64,000 nt of DNA from an archaeon (lineage in GTDB: Archaea > Nanobdellota > Nanobdellia > Woesearchaeales > GW2011-AR15): positions 599 through 64,598 of the forward strand of contig JAZDLQ010000070.1 in NCBI GenBank assembly GCA_043801855.1, read 5' to 3'. Made by a program: the position numbers and the translations under genes. Every line of letters starts with the position of its first letter. Position 1 is the stretch's first letter. The notes below the pieces were generated by a model that was not told the origin of the DNA, made no database searches, and saw only the letters and a list, made by a program, of their open reading frames with translations. This document shows positions 35,172 through 47,991 of this stretch, piece by piece.

Positions 35172-35633
35172 ATGAAATGCCCTTATTGTGGTTCAGATGA
35201 CTTAAAAGTAGTAGATAAAAGGACATCTGAAAATGGAGAATCGATAAGAAGGAGAAGAGAATGCAATAAGTGCCAGAAAAGGTTCACTACTTACGAGCGG
35301 ATTGCATCAGTTGATATTATTATCATTAAAAAAGACGGAAGAAGAGAGCAATATGACAGAAGCAAGCTTGAGCGAGGACTATTAAAGGCAGTGGAAAAAA
35401 GGCCAGTTAGCTATGACCAGATAAAAAAAGTCTTAGAAGACATTGAAGCGCAGTTAAGAGGGGGCGATTCCATCGAAATCTCAAGCAGGGATATCGGCTG
35501 GATGGTCATGAAAGAACTAAAAAAGCTTGATGAAGTTGCATACATAAGGTTTGCCTCTGTCTATAAGGAATTTAAGGATGCTGAATCATTCCAAAAGGAA
35601 ATCAGCAAGTTTATTGAGAAAAAAGTTACATAG
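35172..35633 (+). CDS. nrdR: Transcriptional repressor NrdR (Zn ribbon + ATP-cone)
   Basis: MKCPYCGS...ECNKCQKRFTTYERI, then an ATP-cone (IIKKDGRREQYDRSKL...). Confidence 0.9.
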   Translation: MKCPYCGSDDLKVVDKRTSENGESIRRRRECNKCQKRFTTYERIASVDIIIIKKDGRREQYDRSKLERGLLKAVEKRPVSYDQIKKVLEDIEAQLRGGDSIEISSRDIGWMVMKELKKLDEVAYIRFASVYKEFKDAESFQKEISKFIEKKVT

Positions 35634-35653: not shown

Positions 35654-37630
35654 ATGGTTGAGACAAAAATTACAAAAATTAGAAAAAGAGATGGAAGAAT
35701 TGTTGCATTTAATCCTGAAAAGATAACTGAGGCAATATTTAAGGCAGCGCAGTCTGTTGGCGGAAAAGACAAAGAGTTATCTGTAAAAGTGACTGGTCAA
35801 GTAATAGATTTATTAAATGAAAGATTTAAAGATCACGGAATTCCAAGTGTTGAACAGGTGCAGGATATTATCGAATATGTCCTTGTTGAAACAGGACATT
35901 ACAGGACAGCAAAAGCATATATATTGTACAGGGCGCAGCACAAACGGGCGAGGGAAGCAAAAAACACAATGCTTGATGTCCAGAACACAATCTCAGATTA
36001 TCTTGAAAAAACACATTGGGATGTAAATGAGAATTCAAACGAACAATACTCTTTTTCAGGCCTTTTGTTATATACAGCAGGCAAAGTCATAAAAAATTAT
36101 GCTCTTAATTATATATATCCAAGAGAAGTTTCTGATGCCCATGAAAAAGGCTATATGCATGTGCATGATTTAAGCCATGCTGTTGTCGGCTATTGTGCTG
36201 GATGGTCACTTAAAAAGCTTCTTGAAAGGGGGTTTGGCGGCGTTAGGAATAAGACTGATGCAAAGCCTGCAAAACATATGGATGTTGTAGTGCATCAGAT
36301 GGTAAATTATATAGGCTGCATGCAGATGGAGTGGGCTGGAGCTCAGGCATTTTCAAGTGTTGATACTCTACTTGCCCCATTTATCAAAGCAGATAACTTA
36401 AGCTATAAGCAGGTAAAACAAGATATGCAAAAGCTTGTTTTTTCATTAAACATTCCATCTAGATGGGGTTCGCAGTATCCTTTTTCAAACCTTACATTTG
36501 ACTGGGTTGTTCCAGATGACTTAAAAAGTGAAAAAGCGATAGTTGGCGGCAAAAAGCAGGATTTTACATATGCCAACTGCCAGAATGAGATGAATATGAT
36601 AAATAAAGCATTTATTGAAATAATGCTTGAGGGAGACGCAAATGGCAGGCTTTTTACATTTCCGATTCCAACATACAATGTTACAAAAGATTTTAATTGG
36701 GATAGTGAAAATGCAACACTCTTATTTGAACTAACTGCAAAATACGGAAGCCCTTATTTTCAGAATTATGTCGGTTCAGGGCTTGACCCAAGATCAATTA
36801 GGGCAATGTGCTGCAGGTTAAATCTTGACTTAAATGAATTAATCCAGCGCCCAGGCGGAACATTTGCAATGGGAGACTCAACAGGCTCGATGGGCGTAGT
36901 TACAATTAATGTAAATCGGCTTGCATATGAATCAAAAACAAAAGAGGAATTTTTTGAAAAATTAAGAAATTATATGACTCTTGGCAAAACTTCTCTTGAA
37001 ATAAAAAGAAAACTAGTCCAAAAAAATATGGATAACGGACTTATGCCTTACACAAAAATCTATCTTGGAACACTAAGGAACCATTTTTCAACAATTGGCC
37101 TTTGCGGCATGAATGAAGCGTGCTTAAATTTTCTTGGTAAAGACAAAGACATAACAACTGATGAAGGAAAAAATTTTGCTATTGAAACATTAAAATATAT
37201 GAAAGAAGTATTAAAAGAATTCCAGGTTGAGACAGGTAATTTATATAATCTTGAGGCAACTCCAGCTGAAAGCACAGCATACAGGTTTGCAAGGCTTGAT
37301 AAGATACTTTATCCGCAGATTATAACTGCTGGAAAAGATGTGCCTTACCTTACAAATTCAACACAGTTTCCAGTAGGAAATACTGAGGATGTTATTGAAG
37401 CTTTGGAACACCAAAACGATATCCAGCCATTATATACTGGAGGAACAATGTTTCATGTCTTCTTAGGCCAGAAAGTGTCAAGCCCAGAAGCCTGTAAAAA
37501 ACTAGTTAAAAAAATAGCTTACAATACAAAGCTTCCGTATTTTTCAATAACTCCAACTTTTAGCATATGTCCGGAGCATGGCTATATAGCAGGCGAGCAC
37601 TTCAAGTGCCCATATGATTCATGTAATTAA
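35654..37630 (+). CDS. nrdD: Anaerobic ribonucleoside-triphosphate reductase NrdD, main body (ends at in-frame TAA)
   Basis: N-terminal ATP-cone (IRKRDGRIVAFNPEKI) and the class III RNR barrel, including the RAMCCRL thiyl-radical loop. Terminates at ...HFKCPYDSCN-TAA, before the glycyl-radical motif. Confidence 0.9.
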   Translation: MVETKITKIRKRDGRIVAFNPEKITEAIFKAAQSVGGKDKELSVKVTGQVIDLLNERFKDHGIPSVEQVQDIIEYVLVETGHYRTAKAYILYRAQHKRAREAKNTMLDVQNTISDYLEKTHWDVNENSNEQYSFSGLLLYTAGKVIKNYALNYIYPREVSDAHEKGYMHVHDLSHAVVGYCAGWSLKKLLERGFGGVRNKTDAKPAKHMDVVVHQMVNYIGCMQMEWAGAQAFSSVDTLLAPFIKADNLSYKQVKQDMQKLVFSLNIPSRWGSQYPFSNLTFDWVVPDDLKSEKAIVGGKKQDFTYANCQNEMNMINKAFIEIMLEGDANGRLFTFPIPTYNVTKDFNWDSENATLLFELTAKYGSPYFQNYVGSGLDPRSIRAMCCRLNLDLNELIQRPGGTFAMGDSTGSMGVVTINVNRLAYESKTKEEFFEKLRNYMTLGKTSLEIKRKLVQKNMDNGLMPYTKIYLGTLRNHFSTIGLCGMNEACLNFLGKDKDITTDEGKNFAIETLKYMKEVLKEFQVETGNLYNLEATPAESTAYRFARLDKILYPQIITAGKDVPYLTNSTQFPVGNTEDVIEALEHQNDIQPLYTGGTMFHVFLGQKVSSPEACKKLVKKIAYNTKLPYFSITPTFSICPEHGYIAGEHFKCPYDSCN

Positions 37631-37639
37631 AAAAAATGT

Positions 37640-38143
37640 GTGTGGTGGAAAAAAAAAATGGCATGCGATAAAAAATGCGAAGTTTATTCAAGGATAGTTG
37701 GCTACTATAGGCCAGTTGACCAGTGGAATTTAGGAAAGCAGGAAGAATTCAAAGACAGGCTTGAATTTACAGAAACAAAAGCATTATCAAGCAATTTTAA
37801 GAATTCATCTGCACAGGAATTTGTTGATTGTAGTTGCGGAGATGGAACAATGCAAAATAAAATGTCTCCTACAAAATACAAAGTATTCTCGTTTCCAAAC
37901 TGCGATAAATGCACAACAGTAAAAGAATACTTATCAACAACAGCGATAGCTGGTGCTGATACTAACTTAGGAGATGATTTGGGTGTTGCAGAATTTAGGC
38001 AGTATTACAAGCAGGTAAAAGACCAACTCACAAGAAATGAGGACGGAAGCCTTCCTGTTCCAACTGTTTTGTTTTTTGATGCAGGTGAAAATATTATTGG
38101 GACAGCCCATAATGTTGAACAGATAAAAAGCCTTCTTCAATAA
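37640..38143 (+). CDS. NrdD C-terminal glycyl-radical domain fused to a glutaredoxin/NrdH-like domain
   Basis: Same frame as nrdD, 9 nt after its TAA. ACDKKCEVYSRIVGYYRPVDQWNLGKQEEFKDR is the NrdD Zn/glycyl-radical motif. FSFPNCDKCTTVKEYL...LPVPTVLFFD is a CxxC thioredoxin-fold pattern. The start could be GTG 37640 or ATG 37658. Confidence 0.8.
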   Translation: MWWKKKMACDKKCEVYSRIVGYYRPVDQWNLGKQEEFKDRLEFTETKALSSNFKNSSAQEFVDCSCGDGTMQNKMSPTKYKVFSFPNCDKCTTVKEYLSTTAIAGADTNLGDDLGVAEFRQYYKQVKDQLTRNEDGSLPVPTVLFFDAGENIIGTAHNVEQIKSLLQ

Positions 38144-38166
38144 GAATTTTTTTTTATTTTTTTAAG

Positions 38167-38871
38167 ATGCCAATCGATATAAAAGGCTTGCAAAAAATGG
38201 ACCTAATGAATTTTGGGTCTTATCCTTCTGCTACAGTTTTTCTTTCAAGATGCAATTTTTCATGCCCATTTTGCCATAATCCTGAACTTGTTAGTGGATA
38301 CGAAAAAATTAAAAGCATGCCTGAAGACGAGGTGATATCGTTTCTTATAAGTAGGAAGCAGTGGTACGATGGCGTATGTATAACTGGCGGAGAGCCAACT
38401 CTTCATAAAGATCTTCCAAAATTCATATCGAGATTAAAAAAAGAAGGATTTAAGGTGAAGCTTGATACAAACGGCACAAACCCAAAAATGATAGCTGTTT
38501 TATTAGAACAAAACCTAGTTGATTATATAGCGATGGATATAAAATCTCCTTTTGAAAAATATGATTTTATAACAAGAGTAAAAACAGATATTGCAGCAAT
38601 TAAAGAATCAATTAAATTGATTATGGAATCTAATATTGATTATGAATTCAGGACAACAATAATTCCAAAGTTCCATAAAAAAGAAGATATAATAGCAATT
38701 GCCAAAGCGATAAGTGGGGCAAAAAGATATGTTTTGCAGCAATTTAGATCAACAGAAAATATGTTAGATAATTCACTTAAAGATTCACAGATTTATACAA
38801 AAGAAGAACTAATGGAAATCAAAAGCGCAGTTGAACCTTATTTCAAGGAAATTCTTATTCATAATATTTAA
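38167..38871 (+). CDS. nrdG: Anaerobic RNR activating radical-SAM protein NrdG
   Basis: CNFSCPFCHN (CxxxCxxC) and GVCITGGEPT. Confidence 0.85.
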   Translation: MPIDIKGLQKMDLMNFGSYPSATVFLSRCNFSCPFCHNPELVSGYEKIKSMPEDEVISFLISRKQWYDGVCITGGEPTLHKDLPKFISRLKKEGFKVKLDTNGTNPKMIAVLLEQNLVDYIAMDIKSPFEKYDFITRVKTDIAAIKESIKLIMESNIDYEFRTTIIPKFHKKEDIIAIAKAISGAKRYVLQQFRSTENMLDNSLKDSQIYTKEELMEIKSAVEPYFKEILIHNI

Positions 38872-46257: not shown

Positions 46258-46497
46258 CTAAATATACTCATTACTTCTGTCAACATACTTTGTATGCAGA
46301 AGTTCGTGCGCCTTTTGGCTACCATATTCGCCGACGTTCTCCTTATAGAAATTAATTACAGATTGGTTTAAGTGTGACTTTCTAATAGGAAGTGTTGTGT
46401 CGACTTTTACAACAGCTTCCATTCTCTTCATAAGTATCTCTTTTGTAGGAAAAGCCGGTTGTCCTCCTCCCCCTATACAACCGCCATAGCAGGCCAT
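46258..46497 (-). CDS. hydA: [FeFe]-hydrogenase HydA C-terminal piece (H-cluster L3 motif + small-subunit-like tail)
   Basis: MACYGGCIGGGGQP is H-cluster motif L3. Same frame as the upstream HydA ORF, separated from it only by TAG-GTA. Confidence 0.85.
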   Translation of the reverse strand: MACYGGCIGGGGQPAFPTKEILMKRMEAVVKVDTTLPIRKSHLNQSVINFYKENVGEYGSQKAHELLHTKYVDRSNEYI

Positions 46498-46500
46498 TAC

Positions 46501-47991
46501 CTAAATAAAGTGATAAGGTGATTTACCTGCTTTGATGTCATCCATTATCTTCCTTGCCTCAGAGAGAGTGTGAACTACACATATCTTGAGATCAATTCCT
46601 GCAACAGTTACAGTTGCTTCTTTTTTAGTCTCTAATCCCCTAACCTGTGTATATTCTATATTTTTTAGATCTTTGCCTTCAACCCAGTCAGCCGCAGTTC
46701 GCAGTGCTGCTTCCATGACGCCGCCGCTTCTTGCAAAAATTGCAGCGGCACCAGTTGATTCACCTAAAGGATTATCAAACATATCATCTTCAATCCGTGC
46801 AAAATCAATATTCATTTCCTTTATTAATTTTGCAAGTTCTACAGTTGTAAGGACAACATCAGTATCTCCCGTCATCTCAGATCTCTGGCATTCATATTTT
46901 TTTGCAGTGCATGGCATGACTGCAACCATTGTAATATCGTTTGGATCAATATTCTGCTTTGGCGCCCATACATGCTTTACAAGTGAAGAAAGCATTGACA
47001 TCGGACTCTTGCAGCTTGACAAGTGTGCAATTTGATCATAATAATATTGTTCCATGAATTTAATCCACCCAGGGCAGCAGGTTGTGATCATTGGCATTGA
47101 CCTATTCTCTTTTAGTCTGTGAATGAATTCATTTGCTTCTTCAACAATTGTGACATCTGCTGAAAAATCTGCGTCAAAAACATAATTGAAACCCATCATC
47201 CGAAGTGCCTTGACAATCTTTCCTGTGACTGGTGTTCCAGCTGGTAAGCCAAAGCATTCGCCAAGAGTTGCTCTTATTGATGGAGCAACCTGTGCAATCT
47301 TGATTTTTTTAGTATCATTCAAAACGTCTACTGCTGGCTGGATATCCGTATGCTCTGTTAAAGCGCCGGTAGGGCACACTACAACACACTGACCGCAGTT
47401 GATGCAACTTGACTCTTTCATGTTTGCGTGAAGTGGAGGTGCAATCCTTGTGTTAAATCCTCTTTTATGCAGACCGATTGCATGGACTGTCTGTACTTCT
47501 CCGCACATCTGAATGCATCTTTGGCATAGTACGCATTTATTATTGTCTCTTCTGATTGATATATTTGAATTGTCAGGTTCTTCAATTCTTCTCTCGCCGG
47601 AGTATTCATTTTCCTGTATCTGAAATTCAGCTGCATAAGTCTGCAGCTTGCAGTTTAGGTTTCTCTTGCATGTAGTGCAGTTAAGGTCGTGATTTGCTAA
47701 AAGAAGCTTTAGGTTTGTCCTTCTTGCATCTAAGACTTTTGGAGTATGTGTCAATACTTTCATACCATCCCTTACAGGAGTTACGCATGATGCGACTAAT
47801 CCGCCGCCTTTGGCTCCCTCAAGTTCAACAATGCAAAGCCTGCATGCACCGATTGCAGGTAGTCTTTCGTGATAGCATAAATGTGGTATTTTTATTTTGT
47901 TTCTTTTACATGCTTCAAGTAGGCTCTCTCCTGCTATTGCATCTATTACTTGATTGTTGACAATGATTTTTATTATTGGTTGTTCAGCCAT
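46501..47991 (-). CDS. hydA: [FeFe]-hydrogenase HydA, N-terminal 496 aa (ends at in-frame TAG)
   Basis: 2Fe-2S ferredoxin-like N-terminus and two CxxCxxCxxxCP clusters. H-cluster motifs L1 TTCCPGW and L2 MPCTAKKYE are present. It ends ...SPYHFI-TAG where clostridial HydA reads YHFIEVMAC. Confidence 0.9.
   Translation of the reverse strand: MAEQPIIKIIVNNQVIDAIAGESLLEACKRNKIKIPHLCYHERLPAIGACRLCIVELEGAKGGGLVASCVTPVRDGMKVLTHTPKVLDARRTNLKLLLANHDLNCTTCKRNLNCKLQTYAAEFQIQENEYSGERRIEEPDNSNISIRRDNNKCVLCQRCIQMCGEVQTVHAIGLHKRGFNTRIAPPLHANMKESSCINCGQCVVVCPTGALTEHTDIQPAVDVLNDTKKIKIAQVAPSIRATLGECFGLPAGTPVTGKIVKALRMMGFNYVFDADFSADVTIVEEANEFIHRLKENRSMPMITTCCPGWIKFMEQYYYDQIAHLSSCKSPMSMLSSLVKHVWAPKQNIDPNDITMVAVMPCTAKKYECQRSEMTGDTDVVLTTVELAKLIKEMNIDFARIEDDMFDNPLGESTGAAAIFARSGGVMEAALRTAADWVEGKDLKNIEYTQVRGLETKKEATVTVAGIDLKICVVHTLSEARKIMDDIKAGKSPYHFI

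What the first reader, a model, noticed from the sequence alone, without database searches (positions are those of the whole stretch)
37610..38143. NrdD interrupted by in-frame TAA; detached glycyl-radical domain is fused to a CxxC redoxin domain
The nrdD body ends ...FKCPYDSCN-TAA. The next ORF continues in the same frame 9 nt later, after TAA AAA AAA TGT, as VWWKKKMACDKKCEVYSRIVGYYRPVDQWNLGKQEEFKDR. That sequence is the Zn-site and glycyl-radical motif every class III RNR needs. The detached piece then continues into about 100 aa with FSFPNCDKCTT...VPTVLFFD, a glutaredoxin/NrdH-like thioredoxin fold. A thioredoxin-fold domain fused to the radical domain suggests a thiol-dependent (not formate-dependent) class III RNR with a built-in reductant. 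A stand-alone glycyl-radical module would be conceptually similar to the GrcA/YfiD spare-part protein of pyruvate formate-lyase. The stop is flanked by A-runs (TAAAAAAAA, GAAAAAAAAAATG), which are error-prone and slippage-prone.
Basis: partly seen in the sequence, partly recalled or inferred. Interest (0 to 1): 0.65.

Follow-up and report, generated by a model that had tools for sequence, protein, structure and literature searches.

The report
Two-piece anaerobic RNR with tethered redoxin
In this tiny DPANN archaeon the oxygen-sensitive enzyme that makes DNA building blocks is encoded as two conserved genes: a large catalytic body, and a small protein that carries both the radical-bearing glycine and a glutaredoxin-like domain. 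I found no published description of this layout.

Summary
The NrdD body (35654..37630, 658 aa) ends at TAA. The next ORF is in the same frame and carries the last 37 positions of the NrdD profile (the RIVGYYRP glycyl-radical loop) plus a CxxC thioredoxin-fold domain.

It is a real, conserved gene split, not an error or a pseudogene:
- Five other loci have the same body / small gene / nrdG order. Their spacers are 1-47 nt, four of the five are in a different frame, and each small gene has its own Shine-Dalgarno-like motif and ATG.
- Among the three closest split loci, synonymous sites are saturated while pN stays at 0.12-0.27.
- Contigs of close relatives from two other studies keep the TAA.

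The true start is ATG 37658 (161 aa). The break lies inside a variable insert in the zinc knuckle, so three conserved Zn ligands (C639, H642, C652) are on the body and the aligned fourth Cys is residue 3 of the small protein. About 48 Woesearchaeota-type clusters carry the same redoxin on an unsplit NrdD, and one locus encodes it as a free gene.

The active site has the NrdD2 markers (MCCR, Glu534, Cys181), so thiol-based reduction is plausible but untested. The small protein is the enzyme's only radical domain, not a GrcA-type spare part. It is a new variant of a known enzyme.

The parts
35172..35633 (+). nrdR (Zn ribbon + ATP-cone repressor), first gene of the cluster
   Evidence: Pfam Zn_ribbon_NrdR E 2.4e-21 and ATP-cone E 6.2e-22. 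It holds the same position in L001, L004, L006 and L012.
35654..37630 (+). nrdD body, 658 aa: ATP-cone plus the catalytic barrel up to the third Zn ligand. It lacks the glycyl-radical loop.
   Evidence: NF006126 E 5.6e-301, profile positions 2-646 of 684; Pfam NRDD positions 1-525 of 562. The readthrough AF2 model matches solved class III RNR structures with TMt 0.63-0.76.
36806..36817 (+). Finger-loop motif Met385-Cys386-Cys387-Arg388 (double-Cys MCCR type)
   Evidence: Read directly from the sequence. C387 is invariant and C386 nearly invariant in A1. The motif classes are those of PMC9669993.
37568..37609 (+). Zn-ribbon ligands on the body: Cys639 (37568-70), His642 (37577-79) and Cys652 (37607-09)
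   Evidence: All three are invariant in 70 homologues. They align to the CxxxH...CxxC zinc site of T. maritima NrdD (PMC4493059).
37628..37630 (+). TAA stop that ends the body gene
   Evidence: TAA is the commonest stop in the window (34 of 57 long ORFs). The stop is kept in contigs of close relatives from two other studies.
37631..37657 (+). 27-nt intergenic spacer with a Shine-Dalgarno-like GGTGG (37644-37648) 9 nt before the ATG, flanked by two A-runs
   Evidence: The equivalent spacers in L001, L004, L006, L010 and L012 are 4, 47, 22, 3 and 1 nt; the first four carry GAGGTGA, GAGGTGA, GGGGTG and AGAGGTGG, and in L012 the GAGGTGA lies in the end of the body gene. The A-run lengths differ in a 97%-identical relative.
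37658..38143 (+). Small subunit gene, 161 aa: glycyl-radical domain, disordered linker, then redoxin
   Evidence: Pfam NRDD positions 526-562 of 562. Stand-alone homologues of 147-175 aa exist. pN is 0.24-0.27 against saturated pS.
37664..37666 (+). Cys3 of the small subunit (Cys671 in readthrough numbering), which aligns with the fourth Zn ligand of unsplit NrdD
   Evidence: The column is invariant in A1. The pattern across split loci is complementary: bodies ending CPYD or CPCH pair with small subunits starting M..CxKKC, while a body with an intact CPIC pairs with a Cys-less N-terminus.
37700..37702 (+). Gly15 (GGC) of RIVGYYRP, the predicted glycyl-radical site
   Evidence: It aligns to the RIVGY loop of T. 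maritima NrdD, whose radical site is Gly621 (PMC4493059). The residue is nearly invariant in A2 and A3.
37874..38140 (+). Glutaredoxin/NrdH-like thioredoxin-fold domain (small-subunit residues 73-161) with Cys82-Asp-Lys-Cys85 (37901-37912) and cis-Pro135-Thr136
   Evidence: AF2 block-mean pLDDT is 84 or more in both models, mostly above 90, with a beta-alpha-beta-alpha-beta-beta-alpha order. Foldseek's top hits are BC3987, cGrx1, Trx and NrdH, with probability 1.00. A profile of the family finds BC3987 at E 2.9e-06 and NrdH at E 9e-04. C82, C85 and P135 are invariant.
38167..38871 (+). nrdG, the radical-SAM activase
   Evidence: TIGR02495 NrdG2 E 4e-61. It holds the same position in all the split loci.

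Best explanation
The window encodes a naturally split class III ribonucleotide reductase. Shown: the 658-aa body holds the ATP-cone, the barrel, the MCCR finger loop and three of the four zinc ligands. A separately translated 161-aa protein, with its own SD-like site and ATG 37658, holds the fourth aligned zinc Cys, the RIVGYYRP radical loop, a disordered linker of about 30 residues, and a CxxC glutaredoxin/NrdH-like domain. Inferred: the small protein docks its glycine loop into the barrel of the body as the C-terminus of single-chain NrdD does, possibly stapled by the shared zinc site. NrdG installs the radical on its Gly15. The tethered redoxin re-reduces the Cys181/Cys386-387 active-site disulfide after each turnover, so the enzyme runs on protein thiols (NrdD2 chemistry) rather than, or in addition to, formate. 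The small protein is the enzyme's only radical domain, which makes it an obligate subunit.
For: Completeness: the two ORFs abut on the NrdD profiles with no positions missing.

Conservation of the split:
- L001, L004, L006, L010 and L012 show the order body / small gene / nrdG. Spacers are 1-47 nt, four of the five are out of frame, and each has a GAGGTGA-like SD and an ATG.
- For window, L001 and L004, pS is 0.75-0.95 (saturated). pN is 0.12-0.14 for the body and 0.24-0.27 for the small gene.
- The TAA is present in contigs of relatives from two other studies. One of these has a spacer 10 nt shorter, which puts its small ORF out of frame.
- Of the best 150 representative proteins matching the small protein, nearly all are short stand-alone proteins. 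Dozens begin M..CxxxCEVYSR.

Redoxin:
- The thioredoxin fold is predicted with high confidence and matched by Foldseek.
- C82, C85 and P135 are invariant.
- The same domain is fused to about 48 clusters of unsplit NrdD. In L010 it is a free gene between the GRD gene and nrdG, 40% identical at E 1e-29.

Chemistry: Cys181 aligns to T. maritima C125, Glu534 to T. maritima E495, and the finger loop is MCCR (PMC9669993; PMC4493059).
Against: - No reads of the source sample and no RNA or protein data are available.
- No co-fold of two separate chains could be run.
- The body tail (CPYDSCN) has Asp and Cys residues that could complete the zinc site without the small subunit.
- The finger loop keeps Met385, which is compatible with formate use (PMC9669993).
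- No redoxin reductase lies in the operon.
Confidence: 0.75

Rival explanations
1. Artefact or recent decay. The TAA is an assembly or sequencing error next to homopolymers, or a fresh nonsense mutation, and the organism really has (or recently had) a single-chain NrdD-redoxin.
For: - The two ORFs are in the same frame, and A-runs flank the stop.
- The closest unsplit relatives (P0036, P0037, P0004) have a continuous chain through the same region.
- No source reads were found.
Against: - The TAA is kept in Logan contigs of relatives from two other studies.
- The same break point with stop, SD and ATG occurs in five other loci, four of them out of frame.
- Both pieces show long-term purifying selection.
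- The N-terminus MACDKKCEVYSR is identical to that of a stand-alone 64-aa protein, P0167.
Confidence: 0.05
2. Recoding. The stop is read through or bypassed, for example by slippage on the A-runs, so that a single 829-aa chain is the functional product.
For: The spacer keeps the frame here (27 nt), in the 97%-identical X1 relative (-1 and -2 nt, net -3) and in L010 (3 nt).
Against: - L001, L004, L006, L012 and the X3 relative are out of frame.
- TAA is the ordinary stop of this genome, used by 34 of 57 long ORFs.
- The +1 frame between the A-runs ends in a stop, judged by reading the sequence.
- An SD-like site and an ATG are present at the expected place.
Confidence: 0.04
3. GrcA-type spare part. 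The small protein replaces oxygen-cleaved radical domains of an intact NrdD encoded elsewhere, rather than being the regular subunit.
For: - Orphan NrdD-type radical mini-proteins do exist away from nrdD, for example next to a hemerythrin gene in Patescibacteria (L007).
- Spare parts are established for pyruvate formate-lyase (PMC13450708).
Against: - The adjacent body gene lacks any radical loop and sits directly upstream in the same cluster in all six split loci, so the small protein is needed for any activity.
- An earlier, later-checked note of this scan gave the spare-part reading low odds (e1-909946).
- The genome could not be searched for a second nrdD.
Confidence: 0.05
4. The split is real, but the redoxin is not the catalytic reductant. 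The enzyme uses formate (Met385 present), and the CxxC domain serves another role, such as keeping zinc-site or finger-loop thiols reduced after oxygen exposure, or regulation.
For: - The MCCR finger loop retains the Met used in formate chemistry. PMC9669993 notes that such enzymes could use either reductant.
- No thioredoxin reductase lies in the operon.
- The window's domain scores below the Pfam Glutaredoxin cut-off (18.7 and 20.4 against 22.9).
Against: - Glu534 and the Cys pair, both markers of formate-independent reduction, are invariant.
- The redoxin travels with nrdD in three genetic forms: fused to unsplit NrdD, fused to the GRD, and free in the operon.
- Fused Grx domains act as RNR reductants in class I (PMC6187632).
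Confidence: 0.2

Closest known systems
Single-chain class III RNR of the NrdD2 chemical subtype (Thermotoga maritima NrdD, PDB 4COI/4U3E; Neisseria bacilliformis NrdD) with activase NrdG
   Same: - Same fold: the AF2 model matches solved class III RNR structures with TMt 0.63-0.76.
- Same CxxH...CxxC-type zinc ribbon placed before the radical loop.
- Same RIVGY glycine loop.
- A double-Cys finger loop, plus the beta-A Cys and the Glu that mark thioredoxin-using enzymes.
- nrdG lies adjacent.
   Different: - Here the chain is broken inside the zinc knuckle into two genes.
- The radical piece carries its own redoxin.
- The finger loop is MCCR (with Met), not the SCCR of T. maritima and N. bacilliformis.
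Unsplit NrdD with C-terminal redoxin of Woesearchaeota/Nanoarchaeota (P0036-P0082); a grx::nrdD fusion is listed for Lachnospiraceae bacterium TWA4 in PMC6187632
   Same: - Same enzyme clade (75-76% identity to P0036-P0038).
- Same redoxin family with the RNxDGSLPxPT signature.
- Same disordered linker.
   Different: - These are one polypeptide.
- The nearest ones have a variable 8-20-aa insert exactly where the window's gene is broken.
- None has been characterised biochemically.
GrcA/YfiD, the autonomous glycyl-radical cofactor of pyruvate formate-lyase
   Same: It is a small separate protein carrying a glycyl-radical loop that must insert into a large barrel and be activated by a radical-SAM activase.
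   Different: - GrcA is a spare part for an enzyme that has its own radical domain. Here the body has none, so the small protein is obligate.
- The sequence is NrdD-type, not PFL-type.
- It also carries a redoxin domain.
- PMC13450708 states that spare parts outside PFL are 'yet to be determined'.
Split class II RNR NrdJa/NrdJb of Pseudomonas aeruginosa (Crona et al. 2015, cited in PMC9669993)
   Same: An RNR catalytic chain is encoded as two adjacent genes whose products must assemble.
   Different: It belongs to a different class with a B12 cofactor, and the break does not separate a radical-bearing domain.
Methanosarcina barkeri NrdD3 with an NrdH-like redoxin and a ferredoxin disulfide reductase (summarised in PMC9176816)
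   Same: It is an archaeal class III RNR served by a dedicated glutaredoxin-like redoxin encoded with it.
   Different: - NrdD3 has a QCCR/A loop without Met or Glu (PMC9669993), whereas the window has MCCR plus Glu.
- The NrdD3 redoxin is a free protein, and its enzyme is a single chain.

Membership tests
Class III RNR catalytic protein NrdD (PF13597 / TIGR02487 / NF006126) | Full-length match to the family profile above the curated cut-off | tested here: met
   The body alone scores 999.8 bits against NF006126 (cut-off 548) and 492 bits against TIGR02487 (cut-off 326). The body and the small ORF together cover positions 1-562 of PF13597.
Class III RNR catalytic protein NrdD (PF13597 / TIGR02487 / NF006126) | C-terminal glycyl-radical loop (RxxGY) on the same polypeptide as the barrel | tested here: not met
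   The loop RIVGYYRP lies on a separate ORF, after TAA 37628-30 and a 27-nt spacer. The same is true in five related loci.
Class III RNR catalytic protein NrdD (PF13597 / TIGR02487 / NF006126) | Dedicated radical-SAM activase NrdG | tested here: met
   TIGR02495 NrdG2 E 4e-61 for 38167..38871.
NrdD2 subtype (thioredoxin-dependent; Wei et al. 2014 as summarised in PMC4493059 and PMC9669993) | A third active-site Cys (double-Cys finger loop) plus the beta-A Cys | tested here: met
   The finger loop reads M385-C386-C387-R388. C181 aligns to T. maritima C125.
NrdD2 subtype (thioredoxin-dependent; Wei et al. 2014 as summarised in PMC4493059 and PMC9669993) | Active-site Glu at the position of T. 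maritima E495 | tested here: met
   E534 in NLEATPAES aligns to E495 in NIEQVPAE and is invariant in 70 homologues.
NrdD2 subtype (thioredoxin-dependent; Wei et al. 2014 as summarised in PMC4493059 and PMC9669993) | Turnover supported by a thioredoxin-type protein and not requiring formate | not testable with these tools
   This needs an enzyme assay. Met385 leaves formate use open (PMC9669993).
NrdD3 subtype (methanogen type) | QCCR/A finger loop with neither Met nor the active-site Glu | tested here: not met
   The window has MCCR and Glu534 (definition).
GrcA/YfiD-type spare-part protein | Small autonomous protein that carries a glycyl-radical loop | tested here: met
   The ORF is 161 aa with its own SD-like site and ATG. 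Stand-alone homologues are conserved.
GrcA/YfiD-type spare part protein | The cognate enzyme keeps its own radical domain, and the small protein only replaces it after damage | tested here: not met
   The adjacent body ends before the radical loop in all six split loci.
Glutaredoxin / NrdH-like redoxins (PF00462; thioredoxin fold) | Thioredoxin fold with an N-terminal CxxC and a cis-Pro loop | tested here: met
   The AF2 topology and confidence support the fold. Foldseek gives probability 1.00 to BC3987, Grx, Trx and NrdH. C82, C85 and P135 are invariant.
Glutaredoxin / NrdH-like redoxins (PF00462; thioredoxin fold) | Score above Pfam's gathering threshold | tested here: not met
   The window's domain scores 18.7 and 20.4 bits against a cut-off of 22.9. 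However, 14 of 16 family members match PF00462 at E <= 0.01, with a best E of 1.9e-09.
Glutaredoxin / NrdH-like redoxins (PF00462; thioredoxin fold) | NrdH signature (CVQC and WSGFRP motifs; recalled from memory, not from a tool) | tested here: not met
   The window has CDKC and no WSGF motif. This family instead has its own signature, R-N-x-D-G-S-L-P-x-P-T.

The most novel reading that the evidence does not exclude
The 18-kDa protein would be a self-contained, exchangeable 'radical plus electrons' cartridge. It would clip onto the GRD-less barrel through a zinc site shared between the two chains (three ligands from the body, Cys3 from the cartridge). It would be armed by NrdG and would re-reduce the active site with its own tethered redoxin. 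After oxygen cleaves it at the glycyl radical, only this small piece would be discarded and replaced. Class III RNR would then have an alpha/beta logic like class I.
Probability: 0.12. Interest if true: 0.85.

Novelty: new variant of a known kind. Interest (0 to 1): 0.6.

Why it matters
Class III RNR is treated in the literature I could read as a single catalytic chain plus an activase. A 2026 review states that small glycyl-radical proteins outside pyruvate formate-lyase are yet to be found (PMC13450708).

A conserved form in which the radical sits on a separate 18-kDa protein that also carries a redoxin would matter in three ways:
- It gives a tractable system for studying how NrdG reaches the buried glycine.
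- It allows a test of whether the large MCCR group of class III RNRs is reduced by protein thiols.
- It bears on how radical domains are renewed after oxygen damage.

It also matters for annotation. Pipelines call such loci broken nrdD genes, which may lead to anaerobic dNTP synthesis being scored as absent in DPANN and CPR genomes.

The series found here is a clear example of modular evolution at one loop: unsplit enzyme plus redoxin, body plus GRD-redoxin, and body plus GRD plus free redoxin.

Tried and rejected
- Read-level check: no run holds more than 10% of the sampled words, so the source reads were not found. The second gave only contigs of relatives.
- Altered genetic code: rejected, because TAA ends 34 of 57 long ORFs.
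- Compensating indels in the two A-runs (the +1 frame reads ...KNVCGGKK...): considered and rejected, because the break, the SD and the ATG recur in relatives that lack A-runs.
- dN/dS ratio: dS is saturated, so only pN against pS could be reported.
- One origin or two for the split within the DPANN clade: the quick tree puts window+L001 together (support 98) but joins L004 weakly (81) with the unsplit P0036/P0037, so this stays unresolved.
- Promoter and terminator scan: no signal above the shuffled controls.
- Genome-contig scan: the peptide pattern was narrow and returned only 7 loci (2 split, 5 unsplit), which is not a census.
- Wei et al. 2014 (PMC4246965) is not held. Its content is taken second-hand from PMC4493059 and PMC9669993.
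- Zinc-site geometry and redoxin docking could not be measured because model coordinates are not exposed. A two-chain co-fold was not possible.
- Literature searches for a split NrdD or a separate glycyl-radical subunit found nothing.
Full report
**What is in the sequence**

The + strand carries nrdR (35172..35633) followed by a 658-aa nrdD ORF (35654..37630) ending ...FKCPYDSCN-TAA. A same-frame ORF then runs from GTG 37640 or ATG 37658 to 38143, and nrdG follows at 38167..38871. The body matches Pfam NRDD positions 1-525 of 562 and NF006126 positions 2-646 of 684 (999.8 bits). The small ORF matches positions 526-562 of 562 and 646-682 of 684, and also gives a weak Glutaredoxin hit. The two ORFs therefore make exactly one NrdD, broken after the codon for Asn658. 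The window is 34% G+C, and TAA ends 34 of 57 long ORFs, so TAA is an ordinary stop here.

**Is the break real?**

No sequencing run of the source sample was found; the best run shares 0.10 of the sampled words. Logan contigs of relatives could still be laid on the region.
- One contig has only 5 substitutions and 3 deleted bases over 214 nt. It keeps T-A-A and differs by -1 and -2 A in the two homopolymers.
- A more distant contig from another study also keeps TAA. Its spacer is 10 nt shorter, which puts the downstream ORF in another frame.

A protein search with the small ORF found stand-alone homologues: P0002 (161 aa, 66% identity), P0003 (166 aa, labelled Nanoarchaeota), P0006 and others. 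Their contigs show the same order nrdR / body / small gene / nrdG / HD / Maf (L001 and L004).

Three further loci are also split:
- L012: body of 676 aa and small protein of 163 aa.
- L010: body, a 57-aa GRD, a free 89-aa glutaredoxin, then nrdG.
- L006: a Margulisbacteria bacterium, with a body of 690 aa and a small protein of 171 aa.

Across the six split loci the stop is TAA or TGA, and the spacer is 27, 4, 47, 22, 3 or 1 nt (window, L001, L004, L006, L010, L012). Four of the five related loci are out of frame. Each small gene has an ATG preceded by GAGGTGA, AGAGGTGG, GGGGTG or, in the window, GGTGG. GAGGTGA-type sites precede other genes in the window as well.

Between window, L001 and L004 the synonymous sites are saturated (pS 0.75-0.95). 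pN is 0.12-0.14 for the body and 0.24-0.27 for the small gene, similar to nrdG at 0.29-0.30. Both pieces have therefore been kept under selection for a long time as separate genes. This rules out an assembly error or a young pseudogene as the general explanation. It leaves them only a small probability for this particular assembly.

**Where the break lies**

The usual sequence in this family is SICPEHGY..GEHFKCPxCGxETEVYSRIVGYYRPV. It corresponds to the zinc ribbon of T. maritima NrdD, whose Zn is bound by CxxxH...CxxC just before the radical loop (PMC4493059).

The closest unsplit relatives (P0036, P0037, P0038 at 75-76% identity, and the partial P0004) have a variable 8-20-aa insert between CP and the last Cys, for example CPNPTESEETCSKRCEVYSR. 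The split genes are broken in exactly that insert.

In a 70-sequence alignment, C639, H642 and C652 (on the body) and C671 (Cys3 of the small protein) are invariant. Complementarity supports a shared site:
- Bodies ending CPYD or CPCH pair with small proteins starting M..CxKKC (window, L001, L004, L010).
- The Margulisbacteria body keeps an intact CPIC, and its small protein has no N-terminal Cys. Instead, heptad-like helices flank the break.

A zinc site bridging the two chains is thus a reasonable inference but is not shown. Asp or Cys in the tail CPYDSCN could substitute for the fourth ligand.

The true start is most likely ATG 37658, because homologues begin M-x(1-3)-C. One 64-aa stand-alone protein, P0167, begins with the identical MACDKKCEVYSR.

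**The redoxin**

An AF2 model of the readthrough chain (TAA read as Q, 70-sequence alignment) has mean pLDDT 84.2. The region 741-829 has a beta-alpha-beta-alpha-beta-beta-alpha order with block-mean pLDDT of 82 or more, mostly above 90. The linker at 720-736 is disordered, and the junction at 655-670 has low confidence. The whole model matches solved class III RNR structures with TMt 0.63-0.76.

The small protein modelled alone gives the same fold. Foldseek's best hits are the thioredoxin-like protein BC3987, cGrx1, thioredoxins and M. tuberculosis NrdH, all with probability 1.00. A profile of the domain family finds BC3987 (E 2.9e-06), a glutaredoxin and NrdH-redoxins (E about 1e-03) in the PDB. 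Fourteen of 16 family members hit Pfam Glutaredoxin, although the window's copy is just below the cut-off. Cys82, Cys85 and Pro135 are invariant.

The same domain appears in three genetic forms:
- It ends about 48 clusters of unsplit 805-828-aa NrdD proteins; those that carry a source label are Woesearchaeota or Nanoarchaeota.
- It is fused to the GRD in the split form.
- It is a free gene inside the L010 operon, 40% identical at E 1e-29.

This pattern is the classic signature of a dedicated functional partner.

**Chemistry**

The finger loop is M385-C386-C387-R388. C181 aligns to T. maritima C125, the beta-A cysteine, and E534 aligns to T. maritima E495, the proposed proton donor. All of these are invariant or nearly so.

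By the definitions quoted in PMC4493059 and PMC9669993, this is the NrdD2 pattern (third Cys plus Glu) in the Met-containing majority group. [quoted passage not shown] It is not NrdD3 (QCCR/A, no Glu).

The tethered redoxin makes thiol-based reduction the likelier route. A fused Grx acts as the reductant in a class I RNR (PMC6187632). This step is still inference. No reductase for the redoxin lies in the operon. Unchecked earlier notes of this scan place an FTR-like gene and an unusual TrxR elsewhere in the genome.

**How general is it?**

An exhaustive HMMER search of 1.84 billion representative proteins with the 161-aa protein gave 2668 hits at E <= 1e-3. The best 150 are almost all short:
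- Dozens are 50-70-aa proteins consisting of M..CxxxCEVYSR plus the radical loop.
- About 40 clusters are 140-200-aa proteins with an N-terminal helix, the radical loop and a CPNCP thioredoxin-like domain.
- About 20 are free 83-102-aa redoxins.

A quick tree places the window with L001 (support 98) inside a clade that also holds L004 and the unsplit P0036 and P0037. The Margulisbacteria split falls elsewhere, so there were at least two fissions. Among seven GTDB species representatives found with a narrow pattern, two are split and five are unsplit.

Earlier notes of this scan report many other two-piece nrdD loci and, in spirochaetes, the same GRD-thioredoxin small subunit. These are AI notes and not independent evidence, but they agree with what I found here.

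**Literature**

Full-text searches found no description of a split NrdD or a separate class III radical subunit. The relevant points that were found are these:
- PMC6187632 lists one grx::nrdD fusion from a database search.
- PMC9669993 and PMC9531940 analysed class III sequences only between 400 and 1100 residues, which would miss the small subunits.
- PMC13450708 (2026) states that spare-part proteins are known only for formate lyases.
- A split class II RNR (P. aeruginosa NrdJa/b) is known (reference list seen).

**Verdict**

The locus is a DPANN archaeal example of an undescribed but widespread two-subunit form of class III RNR. Here the radical subunit also carries the presumed reductant, and the zinc ribbon is divided between the chains.

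Noticed in passing
L007 4001-4306 (also L008, L009): In Patescibacteria there is an orphan 101-aa protein (P0028) made only of a 4-Cys zinc ribbon plus the NrdD-type glycyl-radical loop. It lies next to a hemerythrin gene, and no nrdD lies within 4 kb. It looks more like a true autonomous radical protein than the window's subunit does.
   Followed up: partly
L010 9-3483: This locus has a three-gene form: a 760-aa body (with a faint LAGLIDADG/intein trace), a 57-aa GRD (P0170) and a free 89-aa glutaredoxin that is 40% identical to the window's redoxin domain, followed by nrdG.
   Followed up: partly
L006 3880-4090: In Margulisbacteria the split comes after an intact CPIC zinc knuckle. The body ends ...EEIIQNLEKLEKELHINKEEAC and the small protein begins MRNIKEIEKEIETLKSQL. 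These heptad-like helices on both sides of the break might zip the two chains together.
   Followed up: no
P0300 and P0287 (representative proteins): P0300 (320 aa) appears to join the radical loop, a thioredoxin-like domain and an NrdG-like radical-SAM domain in one chain. P0287 (192 aa) joins the radical loop to a dCMP-deaminase-like domain. Either could be an artefact of gene calling.
   Followed up: no
window 37829-37837 (Cys58-Ser-Cys60 of the small subunit): A CxC pair sits in the disordered linker between the radical domain and the redoxin. It is absent from P0002, P0003 and most relatives, so it is probably not essential.
   Followed up: partly
window 38144-38166: The 23-nt gap between the small gene and nrdG consists mostly of T-runs (TTTTTTTTTTATTTTTTT), which resemble an archaeal oligo-T terminator. 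In L001 the two genes abut with no such gap. This may decouple nrdG expression.
   Followed up: no
window 37629-37658: The lengths of the two A-runs differ (-1 and -2) in a 97%-identical relative from another metagenome. The spacer is therefore length-polymorphic between close strains.
   Followed up: partly
window 46495-46506 (minus strand): Earlier notes of this scan report that hydA in the same window is cut by one in-frame TAG. Unlike the nrdD split, the earlier follow-up judged that to be a recent mutation or an error. I did not re-examine it.
   Followed up: no
P0038, P0090, P0097, P0101, P0109, P0111: Several Woesearchaeota NrdD homologues are 1058-1250 aa long. P0038 and P0111 have precomputed intein-family hits (PF14890 in both, PF14528 also in P0038). 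Many others carry an N-terminal NrdR-type zinc ribbon fused to the ATP-cone.
   Followed up: no
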